Shown: piece by piece, positions 4,165 through 64,000 of the stretch | Numbering within the stretch: position 1 is the stretch's first letter | Layout: each line of letters begins with the position of its first letter | NCBI RefSeq assembly: GCF_036365525.1 | Contig: NC_090389.1 | Location: 36,020,973-36,084,972, forward strand | DNA: 64,000 bases | Source: Heterodontus francisci | Taxonomy: Eukaryota | Reading direction: 5' to 3' | Notes under the pieces: model-generated | Seen by the model: the letters and a program-made list of their open reading frames with translations, nothing else | What the model was told of the DNA's origin: nothing | Databases searched by the model: none | Made by a program: the position numbers and the translations under genes

Positions 4165-4587
4165 TGCTGAAAGAATGTGGGTGGCATGGACCCCACATGA
4201 TGATGAAGTGCAGGTCCTTTTTCACTTTAAATGAAACGCTGTCACAGGACTTGTCTTATTGCCAGTCAGGCACATTGCGCTGCCCTGAATTTGGTGGGCT
4301 GCATTAGGATGATCATTTGGGATGGGCAGCTCACCACTTCCATTTAAATGAGGCCCAGACTTCGAATCTGTCTGGTCTCGTTGTTCCCGACATAGGCACT
4401 CAACCAGTCAGCTGCTCGAAAAATAAAATATACCTGTCATTGTTTGGAATATGAGGGGATGGGGTTACGGGTTTTACAACATGTGACCTTGTGATGAATC
4501 TTTTTTTGTTTCTATTTGCTCAGTTGTCAATTAATTGTCATGTTGCATTGAATACAGCACATTACCCCAAGAAAGAAATGAAAGTGA

Positions 4588-4965
4588 CCGATATGCCTTC
4601 CTTTATCTTCAGCCGAGGATTTCACCTCAATGTGGTTGACAGGGCGCTTGATAGTGTCCATTCCATTTCCTGCACTTCTGTTCTCACTCCTTCCCTTCCC
4701 TCCCAGAACCACAATAAGGTTCCCCTTGTCCTCACCTTCCACCCGACCAACCTCCACATTCAACTGATCATCCTCTGTCATCTCAAGCCTGATGCCAAAC
4801 ACATCTTCCCCTCCCCTCCTGTTACAGCATTCCGAAGGGCCGCTTCCTCCATGACATGCTGGTTCACTACTCAATCACCCCCAAAACCCCTCCCATGCAA
4901 GCACAGGAGATGCAACACCTGTCTTTTTGCCTCCTCCCTTCTTGCTATCCAAGGTCCCAACACTC
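4588..4965 (+). mobile_element. Penelope-like element fragment (RT C-terminal/linker region)
   Basis: RGFHLNVVDRAL...KVPLVLTFHPTNLHIQ...HIFPSPPVTAFRR...PCKHRRCNTC, the linker and Cys motif upstream of the GIY-YIG domain. Confidence 0.8.
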
Positions 4966-11952: not shown

Positions 11953-14493
11953 TTTTTTAAAAATTGTCTTCGCCAAACATTTCCTTTTTACATACCTACA
12001 GAAGCTTTTACAGTCCTTTTTATGTTTTTTTGCCAGTTTACATTCATATTCTGTTCTCCCTTTCTTTATCAGTTTCTTGGTCCTCCTTTGCTGCATTCTT
12101 AAATGCTCCAAATCCCCATGCTTACGACTATTTCTGGCAACTTTATCGACCTTTTCTTTTAATCTTATACAATCCTTAAATTCCTTTGTTATCCACGGTT
12201 GACTGCCTTTACTTTTGGGTTTTTTGTGCCTTGAAGGAATGTATAGTTGCTGTAAACTATGTAATAATTATTTGAAGACTATCCATTGTCTATGCACTGT
12301 CGTAACTTTTAATGTATTTCCCAATCTGCCTCAGCCAATTTACCGCTTATACTTTCATAATTTCCTTTGTTCAAATTTTACACCCTGGCTTCAGATTGAA
12401 CTAACTCACTTTCAAATATAATGTAAAATTCTATCATATTAAGGTCATCCCTAAAGGTTCTTTTACAACAAGATTATTAATTAGCCCTTTCTCATTACAT
12501 CATACTAGATCTAAAGTAGCCTGTTCTCTAGTTGGTTCCTCAACACACTGCTCGAAAAAACCATCCCGAACACACTCCAGAAACTTGTCCTCCACAGCAT
12601 TAGTGCTCAATAGGTCTATCCTGTCTATGTACAGATTGAAGTCACCCATAATTACTGTGTTACCCATGCCACATGCTTCTCTAATCTACTGATTCATACC
12701 ATGCCCCACACTACCACTACTACTTGGGGGCCTATAAACAACTCCTACAAATTTTTGTTGCGCCTTGCTGTTTCTTAGCTCCACCCAAACAGATTCCACA
12801 TTTTGTTCTTCCGATCTGAGATCCTCCCTTACTAATGTACTGATCCAATCCCTTATTATCAGCACAACACCATCTCCTTTTCCTTTTTTCCTATCCGTCC
12901 TAAATGTGGAATATCCTTGAATATTCAGTTCCCAGTCTTGGTCACCCTGTAGCCACGTTTCTGCAATGGCAATTAGATCATACCCATTTACCTCTATTTG
13001 TGCCTTTAAATCATCTACCTTGTTGTGAATGCTGCATGCATTTAGGTAGAGTGCCCTTAATCTTGTTGTCTTGACATTATTCTGCATTCTAAACCTAGTT
13101 GTATCGCCAGCCTTCTAATGTCACTTGCTACTTTTCTACCTCCTGTTACCAGCTTTACTTCCTTCCAATTTGAGCTACTCTCAGATTCCCATCTCCTTGA
13201 CGAGCTAGTTTAAACCCTCCCCAACAGCACGAGTAAATCTCCCTGTGAGGATATTAGTACCAGTCCTGTTCACGTGTAGCCCATCCATCTTGTACAGGTC
13301 CCACCTGCCCCAGAACCGGTCCCAATGCCTCAGAAATCTGATTCCCTTCCTCCTACACCAGTCACCCAGTCACGTGTTCAATCGATCAATCCTCCTATTC
13401 CTTTGCTCACTAGCACGTGACACTGGGAGTAATCCTGAGATTACAACTCTTGAGGTCCTGCTTTTAAATTTCCTTCCTAACTCCCTGACATCTGCTTTCA
13501 GGACCTCATCCTTCTTCCTCCCTATTTCATTGGCACTAATGTGGACATTGGCCTCTGGCTGTTCACCCTCCCCCAGAAGGATGTCCTGTAGCCACACTGT
13601 GTTGTCCTTGACCCTAGCACCAGGGAGGCAACATACCATCCTGGAGTCACATTTACTGCCGCAGAAATGCCTGTCTGATCCCCTGACTATCAAATCCCCT
13701 ATCACTATTGCTCTTTCACTCCTCTTCCTCCCCTGCTGTGCAGCTGAGCCAACCCGTGGTGCCATAGACTTTGCTCTGGCTGCACTCCCCTGAGGAACCA
13801 TAGTTTTCACCAGTATCCAAAATGGAAAACCGATTAGCAAGCAAGATAGACTCAGGGAACTCCTGCAGTGCCTGCCTGGTTCTCTTGGACTGCCTGGTAG
13901 TCACCCATTCCCTCTCTGCCTGCATGCTCCTAACCTGCAGTGGTACCACCTCCCTAAGCGTGCTATCCACATATTCCTCTGCCTCATGAGTACACAACAA
14001 TGACTCCAGCCACTGCTTGAGTTCTGAAACCCGGAGCTCAGGCTTCTGCAGCCATTTACACTTCCTGCAGATATGCTCATCCAAGACATGTGGTGTGTCC
14101 ATGACTTCCCACATATCGCAGGATGTACATTCCACTTCGCCAAGCTAACTTGCCATACTGTAACTTTAAAAATTATTTATTACATTTAGAAGTAGAATAA
14201 CTTACCAGTTACTCATCAATCAGCTTCTTCCCCTGTACTGAAGAGAGAGGCAGCAACTGGAGGCTGAAAAAGGTAGAAAAGAAAAGAAAGGAGCCCCTTC
14301 CTCACTGAACTCCCTCACTCACCAAACTCTGACTTAACATTCTGTGCTTTCCAGCAGCACTCAGTGCTACTTTTGTATTCAAGTCCCCTTGGAATAAATG
14401 ATAACATTCGATTAGCTTTCCAAATTACTTGCTGTACCTGCATACTAACCTTTTGCGTTTCATGCACTGGGACACCCAGATCCCTCTGCATCT

Positions 14494-14585
14494 GATGAAG
14501 GGTCGCTGACCTGAAATGTTAACTTTGCTTTTCTCTCCACAAATTCTGCCAGACCTGCTGAGTATTTCCAGCATTTCTTGTTTTT
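14494..14585 (+). mobile_element. Short Penelope terminal-repeat (pLTR) insertion with a hammerhead core
   Basis: 14-bp TSD ATCCCTCTGCATCT at 14480-14493 and 14586-14599; begins ctgatga-agggtc-gct-gacct-gaaa. Confidence 0.8.
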
Positions 14586-17500
14586 ATCCCTCTGCATCTC
14601 ACAGCTCTGCAATCTTTCATCATTTAGATAATATGTTTCTTTTTTATTCTTCCTGCCAAAATGGACAATTTCACATTTTTCCACATTATACTCCATTTGC
14701 CAGATCTTTGCCCACTCACTTAACCTATCTATATCCCTTTGTAGCCTCCTTATGTTTTCTTCACAACTTACTTTCCTACCTATCTTTGTGTCATCAGAAA
14801 TTTAACAACCATACCTTCAGTCCCTTCATCCAAGTCATTTATATAAATTGTAAAAAGTTGAGGCCCCAGCACTGATCCCTGTGGCACACCACTCATTCTA
14901 TCTTGCCAACCAGAAAATGAACCATTTATACTGACTCTCTGTTTCCTGTTAGCGAGCCAATCTTCTATCTGTGTCATTATGTTACCCCCTACACCTGAGC
15001 TTTTATTTTCTGCAATAGCCTTTGATGTGGCATCTTATCAAATGCCTTCTGGAAATCTAAGTACAGTACATACACCAGTTCCCCTTTATCTACAGCACAT
15101 GTTATTTTTTCAAAGACCTCCAATAACTTGGTTGAACATGGTTTCCCTTTCACAAAATCATGTTGACACTGCCTGATTACCTTGAAATTTTCGAAGTGCC
15201 TGCTATAATATCTTTAATAATAGCTTCTAACATTTTCACTGTGACAGATGTTAAGCTAACTGGCCTATAGTTTCCTGCTTTCTGTCTCCCTCCCTTTTTG
15301 AATATAGGAGTTACATTGTCTATTTTCCAATCTAATAGAACCTTCCCCGAATCTGGGGAATTTGGAAAATCAAAACCAACGCATCAACTATCTCACTAGC
15401 CACTTCTTTTAAAACCCTAGGATGAAGTCCATTAGGACTCGGAGACTTGTCAGCGCACAGCTCCAAGAATCTGTTCAGTACCACTTCCCCGATTATTGTA
15501 ATTTTCTTGAGTTCCTCCTTCCCTTCCAGTTCCTGATTTACAGCTATTTCTGGGATGTTACTTGTATCCTCAATGGTGAAGTTGAATGCACAATACCTGT
15601 TTAATTCATCTGCCATCTCCTTATTTTCCCTTATTAATTTCCTTGAGTCATTTTCTATAGGACCAACACTCACTCTGTTAACACTTTTTTTTATAATATA
15701 TATAGAAACTCTTATTATCTATCTGTATATTTCTTGCCAGCCAATTCTCGTACTTTAACTTTTCCCTCTTCATTAAACTTTTAGTTGTTCTTTGCTGCTT
15801 TTTATACTCTGTCCAATCTGCTGACCTGCTACCCATCTTTGCGCAATTATATGCTTTTTCTTGAAATTTGATACTATCTTTAGCTTTTTAGTTAACCACG
15901 GATGGTGGGTCCTCCCCTTACAATGTTTCTTTCTTATTGGAATTTATCTATTCTGTGTATTCTGAAATATCCCCTTAAATGTCTGTCACTGCATCTCCAT
16001 TGACCTATCCTTTAACCTACTTTGCCAGTCCACTTTTGCTCTGCTTTCATGCCCTCATAATTGTCCTTATTTAAGTTTAAAATACTATTCTTAGACACAC
16101 TTCTCTCCCTCAAACTGAATGCAAAATTCAATCATATTATGATCACTGCTGCCTAGGGGCGCCTTCACTATGAGGTCATTAATTAATCCCATCTTGTTGC
16201 GCAATACCAGGTCTCGTATAGCCTGCTCGCTGGTTGGCTCCAAAACTTGCTGTGACTTCTTGCATTTATCATTTCTCACTTTGACCCAAAGCGCTTCTAT
16301 ATCTTGGTTTCCTGAACTTAGGTCATCCCTCTCTATTATGCCATTACCATCATTAATTAACAGAGCCACCCTCCACCTTTCCCTAGCTTCTTGTCCTTTC
16401 TAAACGTCATGTACCCTTCAATATTCAGGTCCCAATCTATGTTGTCCTGCAGCCATGTCTCTGTAATGGCTAAAAGATTGTACTTATTTATTTCTGTTTG
16501 CACTATCAGTTCATCTATTTTGTTTTGAATGCTGCATGCATTCAGATACAGAGCCTTTAGTTATGTCCTTTTACTATTTTTGTAACCTCTAGCCTTGTCT
16601 GCTGATTTACTCTTAGATTTGTAATCACTGTCCCTACCAGTCACTGTCTGTTTATCTTTTCCCATATTAATACTTTTCTCTCTTGCCTTGTCTCTACTCT
16701 TTGATTTACCATATCATCCCAAATTTGATCCCTTGCCTCCACTATTTAGTTTAAAACCCTCTCTACTTCCTTGGTTAAGCCACTCGCTAGAACACCAGCC
16801 CCAGCATGGTTCAGGTGTACACCGTGCCAATAGTACAGCCGCCACTTTCCCAGTGCTGGTGCCAGTGTCCCATGAACCAGAATCCAATTCTCCCACACCA
16901 GTCTTTGAGCCATGCATTCATTTCTCTAATCTTATTTGCTCTACTCCAATTTGCACGTGGCTCAGGTAATAATCCAGAGATTATTAACTTTGAGATTCTG
17001 CTTAAGTTGATGCTTAGCTCCTCATACTGACTATGCAGAACCACTTTCCTTGTCCTGCCTATGTTATTGGAACCACATTGACCACGACGACTGGATCCTC
17101 CCCCTCCCACTTTACGTTCCTCTCCAGCCCTGAGCAGATGTCCCAAACCCTGGCACTGGACAGGCAACACAGCCTTCTGGACCCTGCTCTTTGCTGCAGA
17201 GAACAGTGTCAATCCCCCTCACTATATTGTCTCCAACTGCCACTGCTTTCCTTTTTGCTCCCCCCACGTGAACATGGTCAGTCTGCTCATCCACACTATG
17301 ACCCTCACTCTTGTCCATATAAATTGCAAGAACCTCAAACTTGTTGCTTAATTGCAAGGGTGAAGGCTTCCCCACTTCCACCTTCTCAATCCCCTTACCT
17401 GCCTTAGTCAGTCACACCCTCCTGTCCCTGACCACTGACCAAAACAAATGACTGTATCCTAAGGGGGGGGGGTGATTGCCTTCTGGAACAAAGTGCCCAG

Positions 17501-18122
17501 GTACCTTTCTTCCTCCCTGATGCATCGGAGTGTCTGCAGCTCAGCTTCCAGCTCAGTGGCTCTGAGCCGAAGCTCCTCAAGCTGCAGACACTTACTACAG
17601 ACGCGGTTGCCATAGATTGCCGTGGCATCCAGGTGCTCCCACATACTGCAGCCATGACACATCACCTGTCCTGCCACCTTTATTGTGCTAATTGAATTAT
17701 TTTTTTCTCTTAATTAATTTATAGTTCCCCTCCTTATTGAACTCTCTCACTTATCAAACTCCTTTCTTCACATTCTGTGCCTTCCAGCAGCACTCACTGG
17801 AGACAAGCAACACTGAGAGTCCCCTGAATTTATGCTCTTTGAAAACAATGATGTGTCAGCTTTGCTAGAGCTCAGAAACCAGTTTAAGCTAGCTAGCTAC
17901 CTAATTAACTAACTAATAAGCTCTCAGAGAGCTTGTATACCTCTGTTTAAAATTGTAAGAAACATAACTTGCCTCTTAACTTAAACAGTAATTTCAGTTA
18001 ATTGCTAAATGTAAACAAAAGAAAAACTAAAATTTAAAGAGATTAACCTTTAAAATCCACTCAGTGACCAAATTCCCTTCTTCACACTCTCTGCCCTCCA
18101 GCATCGTTTAATGTAGACCACA

Positions 18123-20455: not shown

Positions 20456-20596
20456 CTAATCTTTATTTCTAATGTTATAGAGAAGTCAATTTTATAGAGG
20501 ATCCCTGAGTAGAAGGTGAGTGCGGGTAAGTAACTGGTTAAGAGCAGATATTATGCTGGTATTTTATCTAATGGTCAAGAGTTGAAAAGAGCTCAG

Positions 20597-21932
20597 AGAG
20601 CAGGGAGAGGCTTCACTTCAAAAAGAGCTCGTAGTGCTGGGAGAGACTTCACTTCAAAAAGAGTGGGGAGAGACTTCACTTCAAAAAGAGCAGGGAGAGG
20701 CTTCACTTCAAAAAGAGCATGGAGAGCAGGGAGAGGCTTCACTTCAGAAAGAGCATGGAGAGCGGGGAGAGGCTTCACTTCAAAAAGAGCGTGGAGTGCT
20801 GGGAGAGACTTCACTTCAAAAAGAGTGGGGAGAGGCTTCACGTCAGAAAGAGCATGGAAAGCGGGGAGAGGCTTCACTTCAAAAAGAGCGCGGAGAACGG
20901 GGAGAGATTTCACTTCAAAAAGAGCAGGGAGAGGCTTCACTTCAAAAAGAGTGTTGAGTGCTGGGAGAGGCTTCACTTCAAAAAGAGCGGGGAGAGGCTT
21001 CACTTCAGAAAGAGCATGGAGAGCGGGGAGAGGCTTCACTTCAGAAGAGCGTGGAGAACGGGGAAAGGCTTCACTTCAAAAAGGGCAGGGAGAGGCTTCA
21101 CTTCAAAAAGAGCGCAGAGTGCTGGGAGAGGCTTCACTTCAAAAACAGCAGGGAGAGGCTTCACTTCAAAAAGAGCGTGGAGAGCGGGGAGAGGCTTCAC
21201 TTCAAAAAGAGCGCGGAGAACGGGGAGAGGCTTCATTTCAAAAAGAGCGCAAAGTGCTGGGAGAGGCTTCACTTCAAAAAGAGCGCAGAGAGGCTTCACT
21301 TCAAAAAGAGCGCAGAGAGGCTTCACTTCAAAAAGAGCAGGGAGAGGCTTCACTTCAAAAAGAGTGTTGAGTGCTGGGAGAGGCTTCACTTCAAAAAGAG
21401 TGGGGAGAGGCTTCACTTCAGAAAGAGTGTGGAGAGCGGGGAGAGGCTTCACTTCAAAAAGAGAGCAGAGTGCTGGGAGAGGCTTCACTTCAAAAAGAAC
21501 AGGGAGAGGCTTCATTTCAAAAAGAGCGTGGAGTGCTGGGAGAGACTGCACTTCAAAAAGAGCGGGGAGAGGCTTCATTTCAAAAAGAGCAGGGAGAGGC
21601 TTCACTTCAAAAAGAGTGTTGAGTGCTGGGAGAGGCTTCACTTCAAAAAGAGTGGGGAGAGGCTTCACTTCAGAAAGAGTGTGGAGAGCGGGGAGAGGCT
21701 TCACTTCAAAAAGAGAGCAGAGTGCTGGGAGAGGCTTCACTTCAAAAAGAACAGGGAGAGGCTTCATTTCAAAAAGAGCGTGGAGTGCTGGGAGAGGCTG
21801 CACTTCAAAAAGAGCGGGGAGAGGCTTCATTTCAAAAAGAGCGGGGAAAGGCTTCACTTCAAAAAGCGGGTAGAGGCTTCATTTCAAAAAGAGCGGGGAG
21901 AGGCTTCACTTCAAAAAGAGCGGGGAGAGGCT
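20597..21932 (+). repeat. Tandem array of 42 monomers (27- and 36-bp variants), core GGAGAGGCTTCACTTCAAAAAGAG
   Basis: 42 cores counted by eye; 252-bp higher-order duplication (21371-21622 repeated from 21623). Confidence 0.97.
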
Positions 21933-22198
21933 ATCCTATTCTATCCTCTATCCTATCCAGTTCAGTGGAACGAGCCCTCCAAAGAAAATCAAGTGTGACT
22001 TCCCAGGCAAGCAGGTAGGTGATTGGTTGGAGAAGAAGCTACCTGTTTGGTGAGTATCTGGTAAGTGGTTAAGGTCTATTCTAATCTTAACATTTAAAAT
22101 AGTAAAGGAACCAGTGGTAAGCTTAAGAAAATATATAAAAAAGGAAAATAAAATAAATAATTGAATAAAATAATTTAGTTAATTGAAACACATTAAGG

Positions 22199-23160
22199 AT
22201 TGCAGGACAGATGATGTGTCACAGCTGCAGTATGTGGGAGCTCCTGGATGCCAAAGTGATCCAGGGCAAACACGTCTGCAGTAAATGTTTGCGGTTCAAA
22301 GAGCTTCGGCTCAGAGTCATTGAACTGGAGGCCGAGCTGCAGACGCTGCGACACATCAGGGAGGGGGAAAGCTACCTGGACATTTTGTACCAGGAGGTGG
22401 TCACATTACTTAGGATAGGGTCTTCTGGTTTGGTTTGTGGTCAGGGACAGGAGAGTGCGGCTGCAGCTGAGGCAGGTAAGGGGACCCAGAAGGCAGGAAT
22501 GCAGGAGCCTCAGCCTTTGCGATTGTCCAACAGGTTTGAGGTTCTTTCAGCTTATTTGGATGAGCATGGTGGCTGCAGGGTGGATAAGCAACCTGACCAT
22601 GGCACCATGGTACAGGAAGCCATTCAAGTGGAGGTAGAAAAAAGGAATGTAGTGGGAGTAGGGGACAGTATAGTTTGGGAGATTGACACTGTTCTCTGCA
22701 GCACAGAACGAGAGTCCAGACGTCTGTGTTACCTGCCTTGTGCCAGGGTTTGGGACATCTGCTCAGGGCTGAAGAGGAACTTAGACTAGGAGGGGGAGGA
22801 TCCAGTCGTCGTGGTCCATGTAGGTACCAACGACAAGGGCAGGACAAGGAAAGAGGTTCTGCATAGTCAGTATGAAGAATTCGGCACTAAATTAAGAAGT
22901 AGAACCTCAAAGGTAATAATCTCTGGATTATTATTTGAGCCACATGCAAATTGGCACAGGACGAATAAGATTAGAGAAATGAATGCGTGGCTCAAAGACT
23001 GATGTGGTAGAAGTGGATTCCAGCTTGTGGGGCACTGGCACCAGTACTGGGGAAAGTGGTGGCTGTACCATTGGGATGGTCTACACCTGGACCGTGCTGG
23101 GGCCGGTGCTCTAGCGAACCGCATAACGAGGGAAGTGGAGAGAGTTTTAAATTGAATAGT
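22199..23160 (+). pseudogene. CR1 ORF1 (Zn finger/leucine zipper + SGNH esterase), disrupted
   Basis: CHSCSMWE...CSKCL, ELEAELQTL, VGDSIV, VHVGTND, DGLHL; in-frame stops at ~22787 and ~23000. Confidence 0.88.
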
Positions 23161-23236
23161 GAGGACAAGGGATCAAATTTGGGAAGATATGGTAAATCAA
23201 GGAGTAGAGACAAGGCAAGAGAGGAAGGTATTAATA

Positions 23237-26190
23237 TGGAAAATGATAAACAGATGATGACAGGAAGGGACAGAGCGTACAAATCTAAGAGTAAATCAGC
23301 AGATAAAGCTAGAGGTTACAAGAATAATAAAAGGACAAAACTAAAGGCTCTGTATCTGAATGCACGTGGCATTCAAAACAAAACAGATGAACTGAGAGCG
23401 CAAATAGAAATAAATAAGTACAATATGATAGCCATTACAGAGTCATGGCTGCAGGATGATATAGATTTGGACCTGAATATTGAAAGGTGCATGGTATTTA
23501 GGAAGGGCAGCAAACTAACAAAAGGTGAAGAGGTTGCTCTGTTAATTAATGATGGTATTAGCGCAATAGAGAGGGATGACCTAAGTTCAGGAAACCAGGC
23601 TGTAGAAGCAGTTTGGGTAGAGATGAGAAATCATAAAGGCAAGAAGTCAGTTGTGGGAGTGGTGTACAGGCCACCTAATGTTAACCACACTGTAGGAAGG
23701 GGTATAAAGGAAGAAATAATGGCAGCCTGTCAGACAGGTACGGCGATAATAATGGGGGATTTTAACCTAAATATAGACTGGAAAAATCAGATGGGAAGAG
23801 GTAGCCTAGATGAGGAGTACATAGAATGTTTTCAGGATAATTTCTTGGAAAAGTACGTTCTGGAGCCAACCAGAGAGCAGGCTATACTAGACCTGGTATT
23901 GTGCAATGAGATATGATTAATTAATGACCTCATAGTTAAGGCACCCCTAGGTAGCAGTGATCATAATATGATTGAATTTTGCATTCAGTTTGAGGGAGAG
24001 AAGAGTGGATCCAAGACCAGTATTTTAAACTTAAATAAGGGCAATTATGAGGGCATGAAAGCAGAGCTAGCTAAAGTGAACTGGCAAATCAGGTTAAGGG
24101 ATAGGTCAATAGAGATGTGGTGGCAGACATTTAAGGGGATATTTCAGAATACACAGAATAGATACATTCCAATGAGAAAGAAAAATTCCAAGGTGGGGAC
24201 CTGCCATCTGTGGTTAACTAAAACAGTTAAAGATAGTATCAAACTTAAAGAAAAAGCATATAATTGTGCAAAGATTGGAGGCAGGTCAGAAGATTGGACA
24301 GAATATAAAAAACAGTAAAGAATGACTAAAAGATTGATAAAAAGGTAAAATTAGAGTATAAGAGAAATCTAGCTAGAAATATAAAGACAGATAGTAAGAG
24401 TATCTATAGATAGTTAAAAAAGAAGAGTTAACAAAGTGAGCGTTGGTCCTATAGAAAGTGAGTCTGGGGAATTAATAATGGATAATAAGGAGATGGCAGA
24501 TGAACTGAACAGATATTTTGCAATAGTCTTCACTATTGAGGATACAAGTAACATCCCAGTATTAGCTGTAAGTCAGAAATGGAAGGGAGGGAGGAACTCA
24601 AGAAAATTACAATCACCAGGGAAACGGTACTGAACAAATTGTTGGAGCTGCGGGCTGACAAGTTCCCGGCTCCTGATGGACTTCATCCTAGGGTCTTAAA
24701 AGAAGTGGCTAGTGAGATAGTTGATGCGTTGGTTTTAATTTTCCAAAATTCCCTAGATTCTTGGAAAGTTCTGCTAAACTGGAAAATAGCGAATGTAACT
24801 CCTTTATTCAAAAAGGGAGGGAGACAGAAAGCAGGAAATTACAGGCCAGTTAGCATAACATCTGTCTTGGGGAAAATGTTAGAAGCTATTATTAAAGACA
24901 TTATAGCAGGGCATTTAGAAAAATTGAAGGTAATCAGGCAGAGTCAACATGGTTTTGATAAAGGGAAATCATGTTTAACCAATATATTGGAGTTCTTTGA
25001 GAGAGTTACATGTGCTGTGGAAAAAGGGGAACCGGAGAATGTATTGTACTTAGATTTCCAGAAGGCATTTGATAAGGTGCCACATCAAAGGTTATTGCAA
25101 AAAATAAAAGCTCATGGTGTAGGGGATAACATGTTAGGGATGGAAAGAAGATTGGCTAGCCAACAGGAAACAGAGAGTCGGCATAAATGGTTCATTTTCT
25201 GGTTGGCAAGATGTAACAAATGGTGTGCCACAGGGATCTGTGCTGGGGCCTCAACTTTTTACAATTTATATAAATGACTTAGATGAAGGGACCGAAGGTA
25301 TGGTTGCTAAATTTGCTGATGACACAAAGATAGGTAGGAAATTAAGTTGTGAAGAGGACATAAGGGGGCTACAAAGGGATATAGATAGGTTAAGTGAGTG
25401 GGCAAAAATCTGGCAGATGGAGTATAATGTGGGAAAATGCAAAGTTGTCCATTTTGGCAAGAAGAATAAAAAATAAGCATATTATCTAAATGGTGAGAGA
25501 TTGCAGAGCTCTGAGATGCAGAGGGATCTGGGTGTCCTGGTGCATGATTCACAAAAGGTTAGTATGCAGGTACAGCATGTAATTTGGCAAGCTACTAGAA
25601 TGTTATCATTTATTGCGAGGGGAATTGGATACAAAAGTAGGGAGGTTATGCTTCTGCTATATAGGGCATTGGTGAGACCACATCTGGAGTACTGTGTACA
25701 ATACTGGTCTCTTTATTTAAGGAAGGATGTAAATGGGTTGGAAGCAGTTCGAAGAAGGTTTACTAGACTCATACTAGGAATAGACGGGCTATCTTATGAG
25801 GAAAGGTTGGACAGGCGAGGCTTGTATCCACTGGAATTTAGAAGAGTAAGAGGCAACTTGATTGAAACATAAAATCCTGAAGGGTCTTGACAGGGTGGGT
25901 GTGGAAAGAATGTTTCTCTTTGTGGGAGAATCTAGAACCGGGGGTCACTATTTGAAAATAAGGTGTCACCCATTTAAGACAGAGATGAGCTGAAATTTTT
26001 TCTCTCAGAGGATCGTGAGTCTTTGGAACTCTCTTCCACAAAAGGCAGTGGAAGCAGAGTCTTTGAATATGTTTAAGGCAGAGGTAGATAGATTCTTGAT
26101 GAGCAAGGGGGTGAAAGGTTATCAGGGGTAGGTGGTAATGTGGAGAAATCAGTTCATCCATAATCTTATTGAATGGTGGAGCAGGCTTGA
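23237..26190 (+). pseudogene. CR1 ORF2 (APE endonuclease + reverse transcriptase), disrupted
   Basis: YLNARGI, ITESWL, YRPP, GDFN, LDLVL, SDH; [30 protein letters not shown]; several stops and frameshifts. Confidence 0.92.
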
Positions 26191-28321: not shown

Positions 28322-28460
28322 TAATAAAAACAAAATATTGTAGATGCTGGAAATCTGAAATAAAAACAAAAAGTGCTGGAAATACTCAGCAGGTCTGGCA
28401 GCATCTGTGGAGAGTGAAGCAGAGTTAATGTTTCAGGTCTGTGACCTTTCATCAGAACTG
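28322..28460 (-). mobile_element. Short Penelope pLTR insertion with a hammerhead motif
   Basis: Homologous to the 14494, 50833 and 59377 copies; minus strand reads AGTT-CTGATGA-AAGGTC-ACA-GACCT-GAAAC-ATT-AACT. Confidence 0.8.
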
Positions 28461-42638: not shown

Positions 42639-43992
42639 TTAGAACATTAGAACATTACAGCGCAGTACAGGCCCTTCGGCCCTCGATGTTGCGCCGACCT
42701 GTGAAACCATCTGACCTACACTATTCCATTTTCATCCATATGTCTATCCAATGACCACTTCAATGCCCTTAAAGTTGGCGAGTCTACTACTGTTGCAGGC
42801 AGGGCGTTCCACGCCCCTACTACTCTCTGAGTAAAGAAACTACCTCTGACATCTGTCCTATATCTATCACCCCTCAACTTAAAGCTATGTCCCCTCGTGT
42901 TTGCCATCACCATCCGAGGAAAAAGACTCTCACTATCCACCCTATCTAACCCTCTGATTATCTTATATGTCTCTATTAAGTCACCTCTCCTCCTCCTTCT
43001 CTCCAACGAAAACAACCTCAAGTCCCTCAGCCTTTCCTCGTAAGACCTTCCCTCCATACCAGGCAACATCCTAGTAAATCTCCTCTGCACCCTTTCCAAA
43101 GCTTCCACATCCTTCCTATAATGCGGTGACCAGAACTGCACGCAATACTCCAGGTGCGGCCTCACCAGAGTTTTGTACAGCTGCAGCATGACCTCGTGGC
43201 TCCGAAACTCGATCCCCCTACTAATAAAAGCTAACACACCATATGCCTTCTTAACAGCCCTATTAACCTGGGTAGCAACTTTCAGGGATTTATGTACCTG
43301 GACACCAAGATCTCTCTGCTCATCTACACTACCAAGAATCTTCCCATTAGCCCAGTACTCTGCATTCCTGTTACTCCTTCCGAAGTGAATCACCTCACAC
43401 TTTTCCGCATTAAACTCCATTTGCCATCTCTCAGCCCAGCTCTGCAGCCTATCTATGTCCCTCTGTACCCTACAACATCCTTCGGCACTATCCACAACTC
43501 CACCGACCTTCGTGTCATCCGCAAATTTACTAACCCACCCTTCTACACCCTCATCCAGGTCATTTATAAAAATGACAAACAGCAGTGGCCCCAAAACAGA
43601 TCCTTGCGGTACACCACTAGTAACTAAACTCCAGGATGAACATTTGCCATCAACCACCACCCTCTGTCTTCTTTCAGCTAGCCCATTTCTGATCCAAAGC
43701 TCTAAATCACCTTCAACCCCATACTTCCGTATTTTCTGCAATAGCCTACCATGGGGAACCTTATCAAACGCCTTACTGAAATCCATATACACCACATCCA
43801 CTGCTTTACCCTCATCCACCTGTTTGTTCACCTTCTCGAAAAACTCAATAAGGTTTGTGAGGCACGACCTACCCGTCACAAAACCGTGCTGACTATCGCT
43901 AATGAACTTATTCTTTTCAAGATGATTATAAATCCTATCTCTTAGAACCTTTTCCAACATTTTACCCGCAACCGAAGTAAGGCTCACAGGTC
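42639..43992 (-). mobile_element. Young 5'-truncated CR1 (CR1-E) with an uninterrupted 423-codon RT frame (42716-43987)
   Basis: All RT motifs intact; (aacattag) tail; CpGs retained. Confidence 0.95.
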
Positions 43993-45577
43993 TTCTCTTT
44001 CTATCTCTTGCACACCATCTGGATGGAGCTCGTAATAGCTGAGGATTCCAGTTCTTCAGTGCACTCAGATGATCTCCTCTACTCTATGCTCTTTAGACTC
44101 TGTGGCTTACTTGAGATGACACAGTAAATACTTTTAGCAAATATTATCTGTAAGTAAGATCATCACATTTTGGACACAAAGTCAGGACTCAGGGGTTGGT
44201 GAGCATTTCTGGAGGAGGAAGCTGAAGTATCAGGTTCTGTGCAAGTGAGAGATGGACCGCAGCACTGGGACATAAGTGCATGGGAGAGGAGGTAGTGAGA
44301 TCAGGACTTAGGCAGGCAACCCTTCAGAAAGATTTCTATTGTGGCTGATGAAAGGTTCTCTGTGAACATGTCCAGACATATCTAACAGCACGGAATGCCA
44401 AAGATTATAAGCGGGAATGTTTTATGGTGCTGCTCTTCACTGAAAGAAATGGGACTCTTCATGAACAAGAAATCACCATCCTCAGACCAGAGGGATGAAA
44501 CTGTCATCTCATATGTGAGCCTTCCTCCCCTCTGTGGGAGATTTGGCAGACTTGGAGATCAGTGTACCTCTTTGGTTATTTAAGGTATCATAAACTAAGC
44601 AGACACTAATCAGCAGTGTGACAGCAGTGCCACAAAAAAATCACCTTGTAGTGTTTCATTTATCAAGCATTAAAAAAAAACACAATTGAGACCTAGGATT
44701 TCGACCTCTACAGCAATGCATCTGGGTTGCTTGAGCTTTCTGTAGCCACATGCCGCTTGCTATAAACAGAGTACAGAACACTGGCTCCTAATTCTATATT
44801 GAAGTGATAAAAGATCAAATGAAATAATGACTCCCACTCACATTATCATAACAAAGTCAAAATTCCTTCGACTTCAGCGCACCATTCAATATTCCTTCAC
44901 AAATCATGAGTGTCATTTATTTAAATTGCAGACAGGAAAATAACCCATAAAACTTGACATTCTCTTTTATTGCTATGAGCTGCAACCTTTCAGCGAATTT
45001 ATCTGCCTAATATTTTTATGTATGAATTGCTCAATGATGGTACCAATAAAATTGAAATATAATTTCCTTGTATTTTTATCTCCTATCTACTGTTTGTATT
45101 TTTCACTTAACCTTCAAGCATCATTATAATCATTACATTGAAGGAACCAAAGGTAATAAAAGTGTATTCATAGGTTAATGGAGCTGACTTTCTCAGGGTT
45201 ATAGCTGGAAATATCCATTGAATCAAAAAAGAGATGAGGAATAGTGTACAGAGCTCCATTCATGAGGGCTCCTCGCACAGAGGAGTGAGGATATATAAGT
45301 GTATTCGCATGATCCCCTGACCATTAATTTTAATGGGCTAAAGATCATAGGGAGCATGCCTGCAATTTCCCAATAGGCATTCCCAATTAGCAAGGTTCCA
45401 CACCTACAGCCTTCATTTAGAAAATTAGCTCTATGGTCTTTTTTATCATTATTTAAACATATTTTTTTGAAAGTCTTAATTGTATTCAATAGTTCTTATT
45501 CTTTTCACCTGCTCATGTTGTTTACAGTCCATTCCCATTTGATATCCATTCCTACACATTTTAATCGCTATTAGGCT

Positions 45578-50832: not shown

Positions 50833-51058
50833 TAATAAAAGCGAAATACTGCAGATGCTGGAAATCTGAAATAAAAACAAGAAATGTTGGAAATACTCAG
50901 CAGGTCTGGCAGCATCTGTGGAGAGAGAAGCAGAGTTAACGTTTCAGATCAGTGACCCTTCATCAATTCTAAAGAAGGGTCACTGACCTGAAACGTTAAC
51001 TCTGCTTCTCTTGACACAGATGCTGCCAGACCTGCTGAGTATTTCCAGCATTTCTTAC
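50833..51058. mobile_element. Inverted (head-to-head) pair of Penelope pLTR fragments
   Basis: About 90-bp palindromic arms centred on aatt at ~50966-50969; TSD ccttaagtcga/ccttcagtcga at 50822-50832 and 51059-51069. Confidence 0.85.
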
Positions 51059-55898: not shown

Positions 55899-57815
55899 TT
55901 AGAACATTAGAACATTACAGCGCAGTACAGGCCCTTCGGCCCTCGATGTTGCGTCGACCTGTGAAACCATCTGACCTACACTATTCCATTTTCATCCATA
56001 TGTCTATCCAATGACCACTTCAATGCCCTTAAAGTTGGCGAGTCTACTACTGTTGCAGGCAGGGCGTTCCACGCCCCTACTACTCTCTGAGTAAAGAAAC
56101 TACCTCAAACATCTGTCCTATATCTATCACCCCTCAACTTAAAGCTATGTCCCCTCGTGTTTGCCATCACCATCCGAGGAAAAAGACTCTCACTATCCAC
56201 CCTATCTAACCCTCTGATTATCTTATATGTCTCTATTAAGTCACCTCTCCTCCTCCTTCTCTCCAACGAAAACAACCTCAAGTCCCTCAGCCTTTCCTCG
56301 TAAGACCTTCCCTCCATACCAGGCAACATCCTAGTAAATCTCCTCTGCACCCTTTCCAAAGCTTCCACATCCTTCCTATAATGCGGTGACCAGAACTGCA
56401 CGCAATACTCCAGGTGCGGCCTCACCAGAGTTTTGTACAGCTGCAGCACGACCTCGTGGCTCCGAAACTCGATCCCCCTACTAATAAAAGCTAACACACC
56501 ATATGCCTTCTTAACAGCCCTATTAACCTGGGTAGCAACTTTCAGGGATTTATGTACCTGGACACCAAGATCTCTCTGCTCATCTACACTACCAAGAATC
56601 TTCCCATTAGCCCAGTACTCTGCATTCCTGTTACTCCTTCCAAAGTGAATCACCTCACACTTTTCCGCATTAAACTCCATTTGCCATCTCTCAGCCCAGC
56701 TCTGCAGCCTATCTATGTCCCTCTGTACCCTACAACATCCTTCGGCACTATCCACAACTCCACCGACCTTAGTGTCATCCGCAAATTTACTAACCCACCC
56801 TTCCACACCCTCTTCCAGGTCATTTATAAAAATGACAAACAGCAGTGGCCCCAAAACAGATCCTTGCGGAACACCACTAGTAACTAAACTCCAGGATGAA
56901 CATTTGCCATCAACCACCACCCTCTGTCTTCTTTCAGCTAGCCAATTTCTGATCCAAAGCTCTAAATCACCTTCAATCCCATACTTCCGTATTTTCTGCA
57001 ATAGCCTACCGTGGGGAACCTTATCAAACGCCTTACTGAAATCCATATACACCACATCCACTGCTTTACCATCATCCACCTGTTTGGTCACCTTCTCGAA
57101 AAACTCAATAAGGTTTGTGAGGCACGACCTACCCTTCACAAAACCGTGCTGACTATCGCTAATGAACTTATCCTTTTCAAGATGATTATAAATCCTATCT
57201 CTTATAACCTTTTCCAACATTTTACCCACAACCGAAGTAAGGCTCACAGGTCTATAATTACCAGGGCTGTCTCTACTCCCCTTCTTGAACAAGGGGACAA
57301 CATTTGCTATCCTCCAGTCTTCCGGCACTATTCCTGTCGACAATGACAACATAAAGATCAAGGACAAAGGCTCTGCAATCTCCTCCCTATCTTCCCAGAG
57401 AATCCTCGGATAAATCCCATCTGGCCCAGGGGACTTATCTATTTTCACACTTTCCAAAATTGCTAACACCTCCTCCTTGTGAACCTCAATCCCATCTAGC
57501 CTAGTAGTCTGAATCTCAGTATTCTCCTCGACAACATTTTCTTTCTCTACTGTAAATACTGACAAAAAATATTCATTTAACGCTTCCCCTATCTCCTTTG
57601 ATTCCACACACAACATCCCACTACTATCCTTGATTGGCCCTAATCTAACTCTAGTCATTCTTTTATTCCTGATATACCTATAGAAAGCCTTAGGGTTTTC
57701 CCTGATCCTATCCGTCAATGACTTCTCGTGTCCTCTCCTTGCTCTTCTTAGCTCTCCCTTTAGATCCTTCCTGGCTAGCTTGTAACTCTCAAGCCCTAAC
57801 TGAGCCTTCACGTCT
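55899..57815 (-). mobile_element. Young 5'-truncated CR1 (CR1-E), ~570 uninterrupted ORF2 codons
   Basis: Near-identical to 42639-43992; complete RT domain; premature stop at 56105-56107. Confidence 0.95.
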
Positions 57816-59376
57816 CTAATCCTACACCTCCACCAAGAACAGGCATAATTGATGGAGTGAAAAGGAACATTTCTGGAACTATACAACAGATCCATCAGCA
57901 CCTGTTTAAAAAAAAAAATTGATATTCTGAAATGCTGTGTTCTCTGTATTTCCAGCAGTCTGTTCTTGATTCAGATTAAAGCAGTTGCAGGTTTAATTCC
58001 TTTTTGTATCTACAATCGATTTCATAGCATATTTTAATTTTTTAAAAAGTTTTAAAAGTGCAAGTCTATTTACACGTGCCATATACAGATATAGGGGCAA
58101 GAATTCCAATGAGCCATTCTACCACTGCAAGGGCAGAGGAGTGAAGCCTGTGGCCACTGAGAGTGATGGCCATTGACTCTATCTAATTTGTAAGAATGGG
58201 GTCAGATTGGTATGGATGAACATCAGTCTTGTTAAAGCACAACAATTGTGCCTGCTCTGAGGTAGGCTGAGAATGTCAGATCAGCTCCATGGCGCTCTTA
58301 TTCACCACATGTAGCCTCGGAAAGGCCTCAAAGTAACAGAGCAGCCTGAACTCTGCAGGTCCCAAAACAGCAGGGTAAATGGTTTTCTCCAGGTTTGAGT
58401 ACTTGCTTGCTCTGCAATCCTCCAAGCCTTTACAAGGTCCACAGTGGAGCCGATGGCCTGCTCTCTGCACTGAGGACTGGGGAATTTCCCCAGCCACATC
58501 CCTTTACAATAGAGGAACTTGAGTAGATCCAAACCCTCCAACCAGAATTTCTGCATAAGGGAGAATCCTGAGGGAGCTCAGTTTTCAAACCACTCCTCCC
58601 GCCACTGCTGCTTTTGAAGAATTCCAAAGGTACATCCAACACAAAAGTGGAACTTTGGACTCATAATTGTTTGGGGAAAGAAATGCAAATCAAGTAAAAT
58701 TACATTTATTTATTTTGACAAAGGTAATTAATATCTTTCTTCATTCTGATTTTTGTGCGAGTTTTATGCCCTCCCCACCTCTTCTTTCCACCCCCCCCAC
58801 CCCCCAACCACCGCCACCCCCTTCCCCCCCCCCCCCCATCATGGGAGCAGGCTGGGGTGGGGGTTGCTGCTGGCTGTAAAATCGGATATAGGTTGGCAGA
58901 GTGTGCCGTGGCTGTTGCCTACCTGCCTCTGCTGGTATTTTACTTGGGTCAGTTGAGGCTCTCAATTGGCTAATTATTTAACGGCCTCTTCCTGCCATCA
59001 GTGGTATTTTACCAGCAACGGGTAGGGGTGGGGGAGCTACACCATGTAGCGAGGCTCCCTGGTAGCCTGACTGCAGGCTTGGGGAATGGGGGGGGTGCCT
59101 CCTGTTTGGGCACCCTGTGCCCCATGGAGAGCCCCCCCCCACCTCCCTGCCACTATATCCCTGCCTGCATGGCCCCAGCAAGCCAGCCCTACTTACCTTT
59201 ACTCCGGGCCTCCAGCACTCCTTCTGGTCCTGGGCTGACTGCAATCCCAGCAATAACCACTGCCCTCTGTTTGGTCAGCAGCTCTTGGAAGTGGGACATC
59301 CTGCATCGCAGTGAGGTAGTGGGGGGGCAGAAGCCACGTCCTCAGGCAACTAATGGCCTGACAACAGTAAAATCCA

Positions 59377-59539
59377 ATAATATAAAAGCAAAGTACTGTG
59401 GACGCTGGAAATCTGAAATATGAACAGGAAGTGCTGGAAATACTCAGCAGGTCTGGCAGCATCTGTGGAGAGAGAAGCAGAGTTAACGTTTCAGGTCAGT
59501 GACCCTTCTTCAGAACGCTAACTCTGCTTCGCTTGCTAA
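59377..59539 (-). mobile_element. Short Penelope pLTR insertion with a 5' inversion
   Basis: TSD AGTAAAATCCA at 59366-59376 and 59540-59550; short inverted copy aacgctaactctgcttc at 59514-59530. Confidence 0.85.
59482..59516 (-). ncRNA. Minimal type I hammerhead ribozyme motif (intact core)
   Basis: GUU-CUGAAGA-A-GGGUC-ACU-GACCU-GAAAC-GUU-AAC: stem I, CUGANGA box, stem II, GAAA box, palindromic ACGU in place of stem III. Confidence 0.7.
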
Positions 59540-60857
59540 AGTAAAATCCAGTTGTGTCTAGGGCCGACAGAGGCGGGCTCGTCCCCAACTTTCCAGCCCG
59601 TGGGCCACCGCCACTGTGTTAAATCCTGGCCATACTCATCCGTGATAATTTGAAGAATCAGTTTGTGTAGACTGATTATTTTTATAGCTTCGGGAAGTGC
59701 ATAGAATGGTCCGGGCACAAATTGGGATATGCTTTGTAAGTAACCAGTAAATGCTGTAAACTCTAAAGTAGCTGCTGTTTGGAGCCAATACTGGTAGCTG
59801 CTGGGCTCTGGCCTTGGGTTTTCTGTCTGCTGCATAAATATTTCAATGCTCTGGTCAGAGTTCTGTCACCATACAAAAGCTTTGTTGCCTCGTTTGTGTT
59901 GCCATGTTTTTATAGTTATGTTTCCATGCTAGTTAGAATTAATAAGCTCACTGATGCATTTAAGATCTATCAGAATGTAGCTAATGGTTCACTTTTCTGT
60001 ACCGTATGACAGCAGAGACATTTTGAGGGTAATTGCAAGCATGAAACTCTATTATTCCAGTTGAATGTTTGATAACTGTTGCACTTGAGCAGTTATGGCT
60101 TCAAGCAAGCAATGTTGCTCAGAGCAATCAGAAAAATTATTGCTTGTAATCATTAATGAAACCATCTCACTTAAATATAGATTTTGTTCTCTATGCAAAA
60201 GTCCTGTTGTCGTTTTCTTGGAGATCATTTCATTTTTATAGAGAAACCACAGAAAAGTGGGATTTTAGTTGATCTATTGGGAAAAAACAGGCTTAGTTCA
60301 GAACTGATCATGTAGATAGTCCCCAAATTTCTCAGCTTGTGATCTCAGCAGTTACCCTCCTGGACTGACCCTGTAGGAGTTTGTCGGCGTCCATGTAAGA
60401 ACACCTTATTTTCATGGGGCAGGTAGGTTTAAAGGAGTAGATCAAGTTTTCAAAAAAAATCTGATTTTTTTTCAGGGATTTGAAGCCTCCATTGAGGCCC
60501 ATTTTCACTCACCTGTTGGATGGTATGCTTCATCTCACTTGGTTTCCCACGTACAGTACTATTCTGCTTTATTCTGACTGAGCCAATTGAGTAGGAACTT
60601 TTTATCTTAAATCACATGATTTCCAGCAAAAGGTTGTTTTCAACAACAACATCTCAAATGTCCTCTCGGTGAACTTTAAAAAAAAAAGAGTCCAGTAGCT
60701 ATGAAATCTTCAGCCTCACAAAAATGAATTCATTTCCACAATTTAAATACAAGTCCTCAAAAATTTAACAAAAATGGTGTTGTAATACCATCAAAATGTC
60801 CTCAACATCCAAGTCTATTTTGAAAAAGGCGGTTGATGATTGCAGACCAGCATAAAA

Positions 60858-62969: not shown

Positions 62970-64000
62970 TGAAAGCAAAATGCAGCAGAAACTGGAAGTC
63001 AGATAAAAACAGAAAATGCTCAAAATACTTGGCTGGTCAGGCATCATCTGTCAAGAGAGCACAAGGCAATGATTTGGATATGGAATCTTTCCTCACGGCA
63101 GGAACATGCAGATGAAAAAACAGAACCAGGCAAAAAGGGAACACACAATGACCACGCATAAAGGAAAAAAAGTGGAAAGATCTGTGACGTGTTTAGTTGG
63201 CGAATAGGAGATGGGTAAACGACGAGTGATTTATACATAAGACAAAAGCAAGCAGAATGAAAGAAATCAAAGACACGTGCAAGACATGAAAAGGAGTTGC
63301 ATTCACCTGTAGGGTTGCACAATATGAATGACAAAAGAGCAGTGGCTCGTTATATGCACTACCTGATTTCAACAGAATGGAAGTCCAGACAGGGTGAATA
63401 ATGGACGAATGATCAGCTACAGGCTGTTTTGTGCTCCCAATGCTATTGAATTTCACCCCGAGAGAATGTGGGACTTCCTAAAGGGAAATAGCCAAGTAAA
63501 ATGGGAAAGAGAGAGGTGTTAAGGATGACAGAAGAGTGAACCATTTTCAGGGAGGACACAGTTCCTTCAGAAAACAGAGAACGGACGGACATGATGATTT
63601 TGGAGGTGGCAAAATTGCAGATGATCTGTTGCAGAGGATGGTGGAGCAATGCCGACCTTATCACAGTTCTGTGGGGAAGGAGAAAGGGTTGGGCAGAAGC
63701 ATGGAGAATGGAACAGACTCAGTTCAACCATGGTGGAGTGCATTTTGGAGGATGGGGTGTGGGTGGTGGTATCATCAGAGCAGGTGCGATGGAGAAAGAG
63801 AAACCTGGGAAAGGGAATGGAATCCTTATGGGAGGTGGGATGAGAAGAAATGTAACCAGGCAGTTGTTGGAGTCAGTGGGCTGAAATAGATGTTGGTGAA
63901 CAGTGTTTCCACAGCGATAAGAGGTAGAAAAGTCCAGAAAGGGGTGAGAAGAGGAAGAGATCACCAATATAAAGGTAAGGGAGGAGTGGAAATTTGAAAT
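62970..64000 (-). mobile_element. Old Penelope element: RT remnant plus 3' pLTR
   Basis: ISSSSHPFLDFS...QPTDSNN (cf. PFLD...KPTDSHSYL), IPFP; divergent pLTR at 62970-63065 in the same orientation. Confidence 0.7.

What the first reader, a model, noticed from the sequence alone, without database searches (positions are those of the whole stretch)
59377..59539. Mini Penelope insertions carrying a minimal hammerhead ribozyme
Seen: four related 90-225 bp insertions (14494, 28322, 50833, 59377), three with 11-14 bp TSDs. Each has all or most of stem I-CUGANGA-stem II-GAAAC-GUU-stem I', with a palindromic AACGUU where stem III would be. The 59482-59516 copy has an intact core; the others have point changes (CpG decay at 14517 and ~28428). 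The motif is on the same strand as the Penelope RT at 62970-64000. Established: Penelope-like elements carry minimal hammerheads in their pLTRs, proposed to cleave as dimers. Inference: this is a high-copy, ORF-less, ribozyme-bearing derivative that could cut host transcripts it lies in.
Basis: partly seen in the sequence, partly recalled or inferred. Interest (0 to 1): 0.7.

Follow-up and report, generated by a model that had tools for sequence, protein, structure and literature searches.

The report
Penelope retrotransposon stubs with hammerhead motif
These short repeats are end pieces of a full-size Penelope-type jumping gene that carries an already known tiny self-cutting RNA motif; they likely arise when the copying enzyme runs off the front of the element's own RNA, and the flagged copy is predicted to fold so that it would not cut.

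Summary
The four insertions, three target-site duplications and the minimal hammerhead motif are real. They are not a separate ORF-less family. The same 140 bases lie in an autonomous Penelope-like element (916-aa RT plus GIY-YIG, Neptune-type) in this genome, and short and long copies interleave on a tree. In 1.32 Mb sampled blind, 20 of 96 segments begin at one base, the first base of the hammerhead and 30 bases after a TATA-like box. The predicted cut site shows no comparable peak (at least 9,778 versus 736 pattern matches genome-wide). Most likely the stubs are cDNAs primed inside the RNA that ran off its uncleaved 5' end (inferred). The flagged 59377 copy has a short inverted arm predicted to lock the cut site in a 17-bp helix, so cutting of host transcripts is unlikely there. 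Minimal hammerheads in Penelope repeats, dispersed single copies, inverted arms and tails are published. I did not find the 5'-end pile-up in print, but this scan noted it before in other genomes. The youngest subfamily carries a U4C core change. Known kind, with a modest mechanistic clue.

The parts
59377..59516 (-). Main arm of the flagged insertion: parent positions +2 to about +141 (hammerhead, leader, tail)
   Evidence: blastn to parent references
59482..59516 (-). Minimal type I hammerhead motif: 3-bp stem I, core C3 at 59513, 5-pair stem II closed by G-U, AACGUU palindrome; predicted cut between 59485 and 59484
   Evidence: sequence; pair counts
59514..59539 (+). Short inverted arm (parent +28 to about +47), joined at a 3-base overlap; predicted to pair with the cut-site region in a 17-bp helix
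59366..59376 (.). Target-site duplication, left copy (11 bp exact)
59540..59550 (.). Target-site duplication, right copy
50833..50965 (-). Arm with tail (+6 to +137) of a head-to-head pair; core C3 lost
50967..51056 (+). Arm without tail (+3 to +92) of the same pair; core G5 changed; whole insertion folds as one long hairpin; TSD 50822-50832/51059-51069 with one mismatch
28323..28460 (-). Solo stub (about +1 to +137), A-U closing-pair subfamily, palindrome lost by CpG decay at 28429, no TSD found
14491..14587 (+). Solo tail-less stub (+4 to about +98) inside another retroelement, palindrome lost at 14517, 14-bp exact TSD
62972..63059 (-). Decayed leader/tail of an older related Penelope copy; hammerhead not recognisable
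63654..64000 (-). Decayed Penelope RT fragment (parent residues 577-711, runs to 64018 just past the window)
   Evidence: tblastn

Best explanation
The insertions are short copies of the 5' leader and tail of an autonomous Penelope-like retrotransposon, likely made when its reverse transcriptase primed inside an uncleaved element RNA and ran off the RNA's front end, which likely lies at the first base of the hammerhead. Shown: the parent with an intact RT plus GIY-YIG frame; shared 3' ends at about +100 and +136 in short and long copies; a 5'-end peak at +2; TSDs; head-to-head pairs with the tail on one arm. Inferred: that +1/+2 is a transcription start driven by the TATA-like box 29-30 bases upstream; that pairs come from extension of both nicked target strands and joining at short overlaps; that most stubs are dead ends. 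Predicted: the flagged copy's inverted arm blocks the active fold, and lone copies would need a second motif or the element protein to cut.
For: Parent: 916-aa frame with RVT_1 and GIY-YIG matches in L070, 3,304-base tandem unit in L051-L052. 11 of the 30 best matches to the flagged copy continue upstream into shared element sequence by 50 bases or more, 5 of them by about 1 kb or more into the endonuclease/RT region. Blind sample, 132 x 10 kb: 20 of 96 segments start at +2, no other single position has more than 4; 31 start within -5..+5; 23 extend upstream. Genome-wide: at least 9,778 matches that break from the parent just before +2, against 736 at +34 and 321 at +37. 3' ends fall in the two clusters in 26 of 31 start-site copies and 23 of 23 long copies, like the two internal RT start sites in PMC11167929. 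Tail on exactly one arm in 16 of 18 pairs, P = 0.0007. 1,821 head-to-head junctions with a +2 arm, control 0. TA-rich box at about -29 to -34 in 17 of 22 long copies by a loose pattern. Short and long copies interleave on the tree. Fold of the flagged copy: -31.5 kcal/mol, z = -4.5; active register -16.2.
Against: No RNA 5' end was measured: only assembled contigs were available and they cannot show ends. In 30 young U4C loci the 16 near-start ends spread over -2 to +5 (3 at +2, 4 at +1), less sharp than in the blind sample. The G at +2 is templated in the parent, so no cap-derived G could be shown. Sequence just upstream also reads as a branch point, pyrimidine tract and AG acceptor, and the D. 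virilis intron ends at helix I (PMC4209133). The TA-rich box is degenerate and had no shuffle control. 42 of 96 segments start inside +6..+100, so ordinary truncation is common too. TSDs were found for only 14 of 56 solo copies. The raw +34 count is 2.3 times the +37 control. Folding results are predictions without protein.
Confidence: 0.68

Rival explanations
1. The +2 boundary is not the RNA start. It is set by a splice acceptor just before helix I, by a protein or structure that stops the RT there, or by self-priming on an antisense template as proposed for rotifer Penelopes.
For: Upstream sequence resembles a 3' splice site in most subfamilies. The D. virilis intron ends at helix I (PMC4209133). 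Antisense self-priming was proposed in PMC3846280. Many pair junctions sit at 2-6 base overlaps around +2.
Against: No shared upstream exon: in the 5 of 14 solo start-site copies where a TSD was found it lies within -3 to +4 bases of the element start (13 listed). An acceptor predicts +3, seen in 2 of 96 against 20 at +2. Some long copies lack the AG. Solo stubs also start at +2.
Confidence: 0.16
2. The stubs are solo pLTRs left by recombination between the two direct repeats of full-length elements.
For: Two of 30 ORF-bearing copies start at +1/+2 and would leave such a solo. Solo pLTRs were attributed to recombination or deletion in PMC3846280.
Against: Only 2 of 30 ORF-bearing copies have that start (16 extend upstream, 12 start inside +13..+145). 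The blind sample holds 31 start-site segments and no ORF N-terminus. Stubs 96-99% identical to the parent are already common. This rival still needs an RNA end at +2.
Confidence: 0.08
3. One reading: a self-propagating non-autonomous hammerhead element (retrozyme-like) whose copies cut host transcripts.
For: About 50,000 exact intact motifs genome-wide; 20 of 46 complete motifs in the blind sample are intact; the leader is abundant in contigs of runs guessed to be RNA; PLE-derived non-autonomous retrozymes exist in vertebrates (bioRxiv 2026.07.22.740005).
Against: No short-only lineage. No tandem array of stubs among the window copies. Stubs that start at +2 lack the upstream TA-rich box. No 5'-end peak at the cut site once 6-base deletions (27 of 100 listed) and fold-back junctions (22 of 100) are set aside. 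8 of 20 intact motifs are in head-to-head pairs. The flagged copy is predicted masked. Single minimal motifs did not cleave (PMC4209133), the anole motif needed protein (PMC11167929), and 8 of 9 tested retrozyme dimers did not cleave (preprint).
Confidence: 0.08

Closest known systems
[quoted passage not shown]
   Same: Type I core, no helix III, palindrome at 15.2-16.2, extra base between 9 and 10.1, most motifs dispersed as single copies tied to truncated PLEs.
   Different: Stem II is 5 pairs and often opens with G-U or A-U instead of G10.1-C11.1; the youngest subfamily has U4C; no shark entry was found in the searched supplement file; no 5'-end pile-up is described in the parts read.
Neptune-type endonuclease-positive Penelope-like elements (Craig et al., bioRxiv 2021.04.23.441226, passages)
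   Same: RT then Cys-rich linker then GIY-YIG; partial tandems; adjacent inverted 5'-truncated copy; 30-40 bp tail on one end; frequent 5' truncation.
   Different: Here the commonest product is a 100-140 base stub that begins at the hammerhead edge.
PAc (Poseidon) of Anolis, internal RT initiation (Frangieh et al. 2024, PMC11167929; parts 1-2 of 4 read)
   Same: Two internal RT start sites bounding the tail, both target strands extended, uncleaved RNA as the main substrate, no reads ending at the cut site.
   Different: Other clade; in PAc the ORF starts inside the hammerhead, here the long frame starts at +173; genomic 5' ends at an RNA start are not reported in the parts read.
Non-LTR retrozymes (bioRxiv 10.64898/2026.07.22.740005; parts 1-3 of 5 read)
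   Same: ORF-less, hammerhead-bearing, related to PLE pLTRs, with dispersed monomers.
   Different: Defined there by tandem units each with a hammerhead; the window copies are solo or head-to-head and are not a separate lineage.

Membership tests
Penelope-like element, EN+ (parent) | Single ORF with RT and C-terminal GIY-YIG | tested here: met
   916 aa in L070; Pfam RVT_1 E 1.2e-5 and GIY-YIG E 0.0018, both below curated cut-offs; catalytic motifs located
Penelope-like element, EN+ (parent) | Tandem or partial-tandem arrangement forming pLTRs | tested here: met
   3,304-base unit in L051-L052; 16 of 30 ORF-bearing copies extend upstream
Penelope-like element, EN+ (insertions) | Inverted 5' copy and 30-40 bp tail on one end, TSD | tested here: met
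   18 head-to-head pairs in 78 insertions, tail on one arm in 16 of 18; TSDs
Neptune clade | Cys-rich linker between RT and endonuclease | tested here: met
   Cys motif at residues 782-790; shared with Nematis per Craig et al.
Neptune clade | RT phylogenetic placement | not tested
   No reference PLE set was fetched; Neptune rather than Nematis is inferred from the vertebrate distribution in the 2026 preprint
Minimal type I hammerhead | Core CUGANGA, GAAA, UH | tested here: met
   10 of 11 core positions 93-100% conserved in the blind sample; U4 74% because of a U4C subfamily; flagged copy has U4
Minimal type I hammerhead | Stems I and II with covariation | tested here: inconclusive
   95.5% of cells pair; only the closing pair varies (G-U 8, A-U 7, G-C 5); 45 of 500 shuffles as high; in the blind set A-U 19, G-C 15, G-U 11, other 1
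Minimal type I hammerhead | Palindrome allowing a dimer helix III | tested here: met
   AACGUU present; predicted duplex only -3.5 kcal/mol
Minimal type I hammerhead | Self-cleavage as dimer or with protein | not testable with these tools
   No genomic trace of cleaved ends; needs a bench assay
Non-LTR retrozyme | Tandem units each with a hammerhead | tested here: not met
   Window copies are solo or head-to-head, 8.5-22.5 kb apart; a genome-wide search for tandem stubs was not run
Non-autonomous family with its own master | Short copies form their own lineage | tested here: not met
   16 label changes against 16.8 shuffled, 216 of 500 shuffles as low, 51 rows, weakly supported tree

The most novel reading that the evidence does not exclude
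The genome holds tens of thousands of 'strong-stop'-like Penelope cDNAs that map the element's RNA start to the first base of the hammerhead. They would show that uncleaved RNA primed near its own 5' end is the main in vivo substrate, and that a lineage whose ribozyme carries a weakening U4C change has spread the most recently.
Probability: 0.55. Interest if true: 0.5.

Novelty: new member of a known kind. Interest (0 to 1): 0.33.

Why it matters
How Penelope-like elements copy themselves, and what their hammerheads are for, is still open. If the stubs are run-off cDNAs, genome sequence alone maps the RNA start and both RT start sites, and supports in vivo the test-tube result that uncleaved RNA is used. 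An intact young parent with a natural U4C core gives a direct test of whether cleavage is needed. The claim of widespread cutting of host RNA is not supported, so this is of interest mainly to retroelement and ribozyme specialists.

Tried and rejected
Rfam scan of the window: no hammerhead family matched. Cleavage-site 5' ends: several solo starts at +31 to +38 were copies split by a later 720-780 bp insertion at the same palindrome; junctions compatible with +34 were 5 of the first 100 listed, like other short-overlap classes at 4-7 of 100 (counted by eye); rejected as evidence of cleavage. I first read the flagged copy's inverted arm as starting at the cut site; folding showed it runs to +28 with one change. 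Cap-derived G: not separable, since G+2 is templated; the base before it was A 52, G 32, T 12, C 4 in the first 100 listed matches (by eye), with fold-back and overlap junctions contributing. Pol III termination at T runs as the cause of the 3' ends: rejected because long copies end at the same sites. Search for far-diverged subfamilies with a different stem II using a model of +37..+137: none clear. RNA evidence: only contigs of runs guessed to be RNA; no joint matching the putative +75..+170 intron among those listed, and no ends; unique flanks of the flagged copy were not covered, which proves nothing. Host gene in the window: 20 of 45 open frames scanned, only retroelement domains and one weak zinc-finger hit inside a Penelope fragment. 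Endonuclease remnant at 62970-63600: no significant match. No flanking loci were obtained for the canonical-core pattern, so 5' ends of that subfamily rest on the blind sample. Lunse et al. (PMC5785218) is not held. Earlier-findings look-ups by place and by sequence returned nothing.

Full report
Verdict. The insertions are end pieces of an autonomous Penelope-like element with a published type of minimal hammerhead, not a separate ribozyme element. What is worth keeping is where the pieces begin. Numbering below: +1 is the A four bases before the core's first C in the parent; the core starts at +5 and the predicted cut follows +33.

1. Observation. The four copies are 87-94% alike. TSDs are 11 bp exact at 59377, 14 bp exact at 14494, 11 bp with one mismatch at 50833, and absent at 28322; random pairs gave an exact 11-mer in 5 of 400 trials. 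The 59482-59516 motif has a full core, a 3-bp stem I, a 5-pair stem II closed by G-U, and the palindrome. The 14494 and 28322 copies have lost the palindrome's CpG. The 50833 insertion is a head-to-head pair with a different core change in each arm. The element at 62970-64000 is an older relative: RT residues 577-711 at 63654-64018, a 72-77% leader remnant, no recognisable hammerhead. Rfam has no match.

2. The parent. The window lies in a 6.0-Gb genome. A cartilaginous-fish host is my recollection of these repeats plus earlier notes; it was not tested. Of the 30 best matches, 11 continue upstream into shared sequence and 5 reach about 1 kb or more into endonuclease and RT sequence. L070 holds an uninterrupted 916-aa frame with RVT_1 and GIY-YIG matches, both under Pfam's cut-offs, and L051-L052 holds a 3,304-base tandem unit. 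A Cys-rich linker points to Neptune or Nematis (passages of bioRxiv 2021.04.23.441226). In the parent the order is 3' UTR, TA-rich box, hammerhead, leader, tail, long frame from +173. A 96-base intron at +75..+170 would put an ATG at +56 in frame; this is inferred and no read supports it.

3. Blind sample. I took 132 stretches of 10 kb at round coordinates on contigs C1-C39 (1.32 Mb; the window and 8 adjoining stretches left out). They hold 96 segments of the leader, in 78 insertions, 18 of them head-to-head pairs. This extrapolates to about 355,000 insertions (281,000-443,000); a few split copies are counted twice. Twenty segments start exactly at +2, no other position has more than 4, 31 start within -5..+5, 23 extend upstream and 42 start inside. 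No ORF N-terminus was hit. 3' ends cluster at +95-111 and +134-144 in short and long copies alike. The tail is on exactly one arm in 16 of 18 pairs (P = 0.0007). In a tree of 51 rows (49 of the 54 long or start-site segments plus 2 window copies) short and long copies interleave; support is weak.

4. Genome-wide patterns (exact matches, reversed controls 0). Intact motif with U4: 15,899. With U4C: 34,080. Break from the parent just before +2: 9,778, with a prefix that admits about a quarter of random flanks. Break at +34: 736; control at +37: 321. Of the first 100 listed +34 matches, 27 look like 6-base deletions and 22 like fold-back junctions (by eye), which leaves about the control level. 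Head-to-head junctions with a +2 arm and a short partner: 1,821. Against sharpness: in 30 young U4C loci the 16 near-start ends spread from -2 to +5. Among 30 ORF-bearing copies only 2 start at +1/+2.

5. The ribozyme. Ten of 11 core positions are 93-100% conserved; variation falls at N7, loop II, the closing pair and U4 (94 of 96 segments, two lost to a name clash). The closing pair is A-U 19, G-C 15, G-U 11, other 1, but formal covariation on 20 aligned copies is not significant (45 of 500 shuffles). Twenty of 46 complete motifs are intact, 10 with U4 and 10 with C4; 8 of the 20 are in head-to-head pairs. U4C considerably lowers activity in vitro yet allowed viroid infectivity (passage of PMC3088659). 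In the flagged copy the inverted arm (+28 to about +47) pairs 17 bases across the palindrome and cut site: -31.5 kcal/mol, z = -4.5, against -16.2 for the active register. Solo copies rarely form stem I either (probability 0.001-0.17 in 5 copies).

6. Mechanism. Shown: parent, shared 3' ends, 5' peak, TSDs, pairs. Established for PAc: internal RT initiation at two sites, extension of both strands, uncleaved RNA as substrate, protein-assisted cleavage (PMC11167929). Inferred: transcription starts at +1/+2, 29-30 bases after a TA-rich box (17 of 22 long copies by a loose pattern, no control); the protein primes at +100 or +136 on the 5' copy of the leader and reaches the RNA end within 100-140 bases; two such cDNAs join at short overlaps to give pairs. 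The stubs carry a whole hammerhead because only uncut RNA has one. Confidence 0.68. Rivals: splice acceptor, RT stop or antisense self-priming 0.16; solo pLTR recombination 0.08; self-propagating cutter of host RNA 0.08.

7. What is known. Minimal hammerheads in PLE repeats, mostly as dispersed single motifs, no cleavage as monomer and low as dimer: PMC4209133 (parts 1-2 of 4; supplement file 2 searched, file 1 not searchable). Inverted copies and tails: passages of bioRxiv 2021.04.23.441226 and PMC3846280. Internal promoter and leader intron of Penelope: passages of PMC2377424. Retrozymes as PLE derivatives, 1 of 9 dimers cleaving: bioRxiv 2026.07.22.740005 (parts 1-3 of 5; supplements closed). 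Reviews PMC6765202 and PMC6155905: passages. Lunse et al. was seen only as a citation. Seven searches found no paper describing a 5'-end pile-up at the hammerhead edge or a shark PLE hammerhead; subscription papers, Repbase and Fig. S2 of PMC11167929 (not held as text) could hold it.

8. Earlier scan notes. I stated the run-off reading before looking. The look-up by words returned 277 findings in at least 31 genomes, several with the same idea. They are not independent evidence. One note's cleavage-site clustering was tested and not found here.

9. Score. New member of a known kind; interest 0.33. The run-off signature and the U4C lineage make an open question testable; the host-cleavage idea is unsupported.

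Noticed in passing
genome-wide pattern; parent in L051:6900-6940 and L070: The youngest subfamily, including the intact parent, has U4C in the core and a G-C closing pair; 34,080 exact motifs against 15,899 with U4.
   Followed up: partly
L098:3131-3855, L176:7372-8149, L181:8055-8777: A 720-780 bp element with short inverted ends and an apparent 3-base duplication (Harbinger-like, recalled label) inserts at or beside the hammerhead palindrome and mimics cleavage-site ends.
   Followed up: partly
L191-L220: 10 of 30 ORF-bearing copies begin inside the leader or tail (+62 to +145), close to one unit length from the RT start sites; compatible with copying round a circle or a template jump.
   Followed up: no
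L051:6955-7072: Putative 96-base intron that would join a short upstream ATG exon in frame to the long ORF; both RT start sites lie inside it.
   Followed up: partly
one search list: A recurrent 6-base deletion between the two AAC repeats of the palindrome removes the cut site (27 of the first 100 listed matches).
   Followed up: no
window 4584-4961 (+): Another decayed Penelope RT/linker fragment, 54% identical to the parent protein.
   Followed up: partly
window 20550-21960: Tandem array of 27- and 36-base units.
   Followed up: no
window 14367-17687 and 22189-25640: Two long inverted copies of an RT-bearing LINE-like element (72-92% complementary) flank the tandem array; the 14494 stub sits in one of them and is absent from the other, an empty-site control.
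   Followed up: partly
window 42639-44083 and 55899-57970 (-): Two near-identical RT-bearing copies 13,260 bases apart with long open frames (455 and 621 aa).
   Followed up: no
L004-L007: Four loci on different contigs share 98-99% identity across the whole upstream 1.5 kb and the downstream junction: a stub-bearing segment amplified as part of a larger duplication.
   Followed up: no
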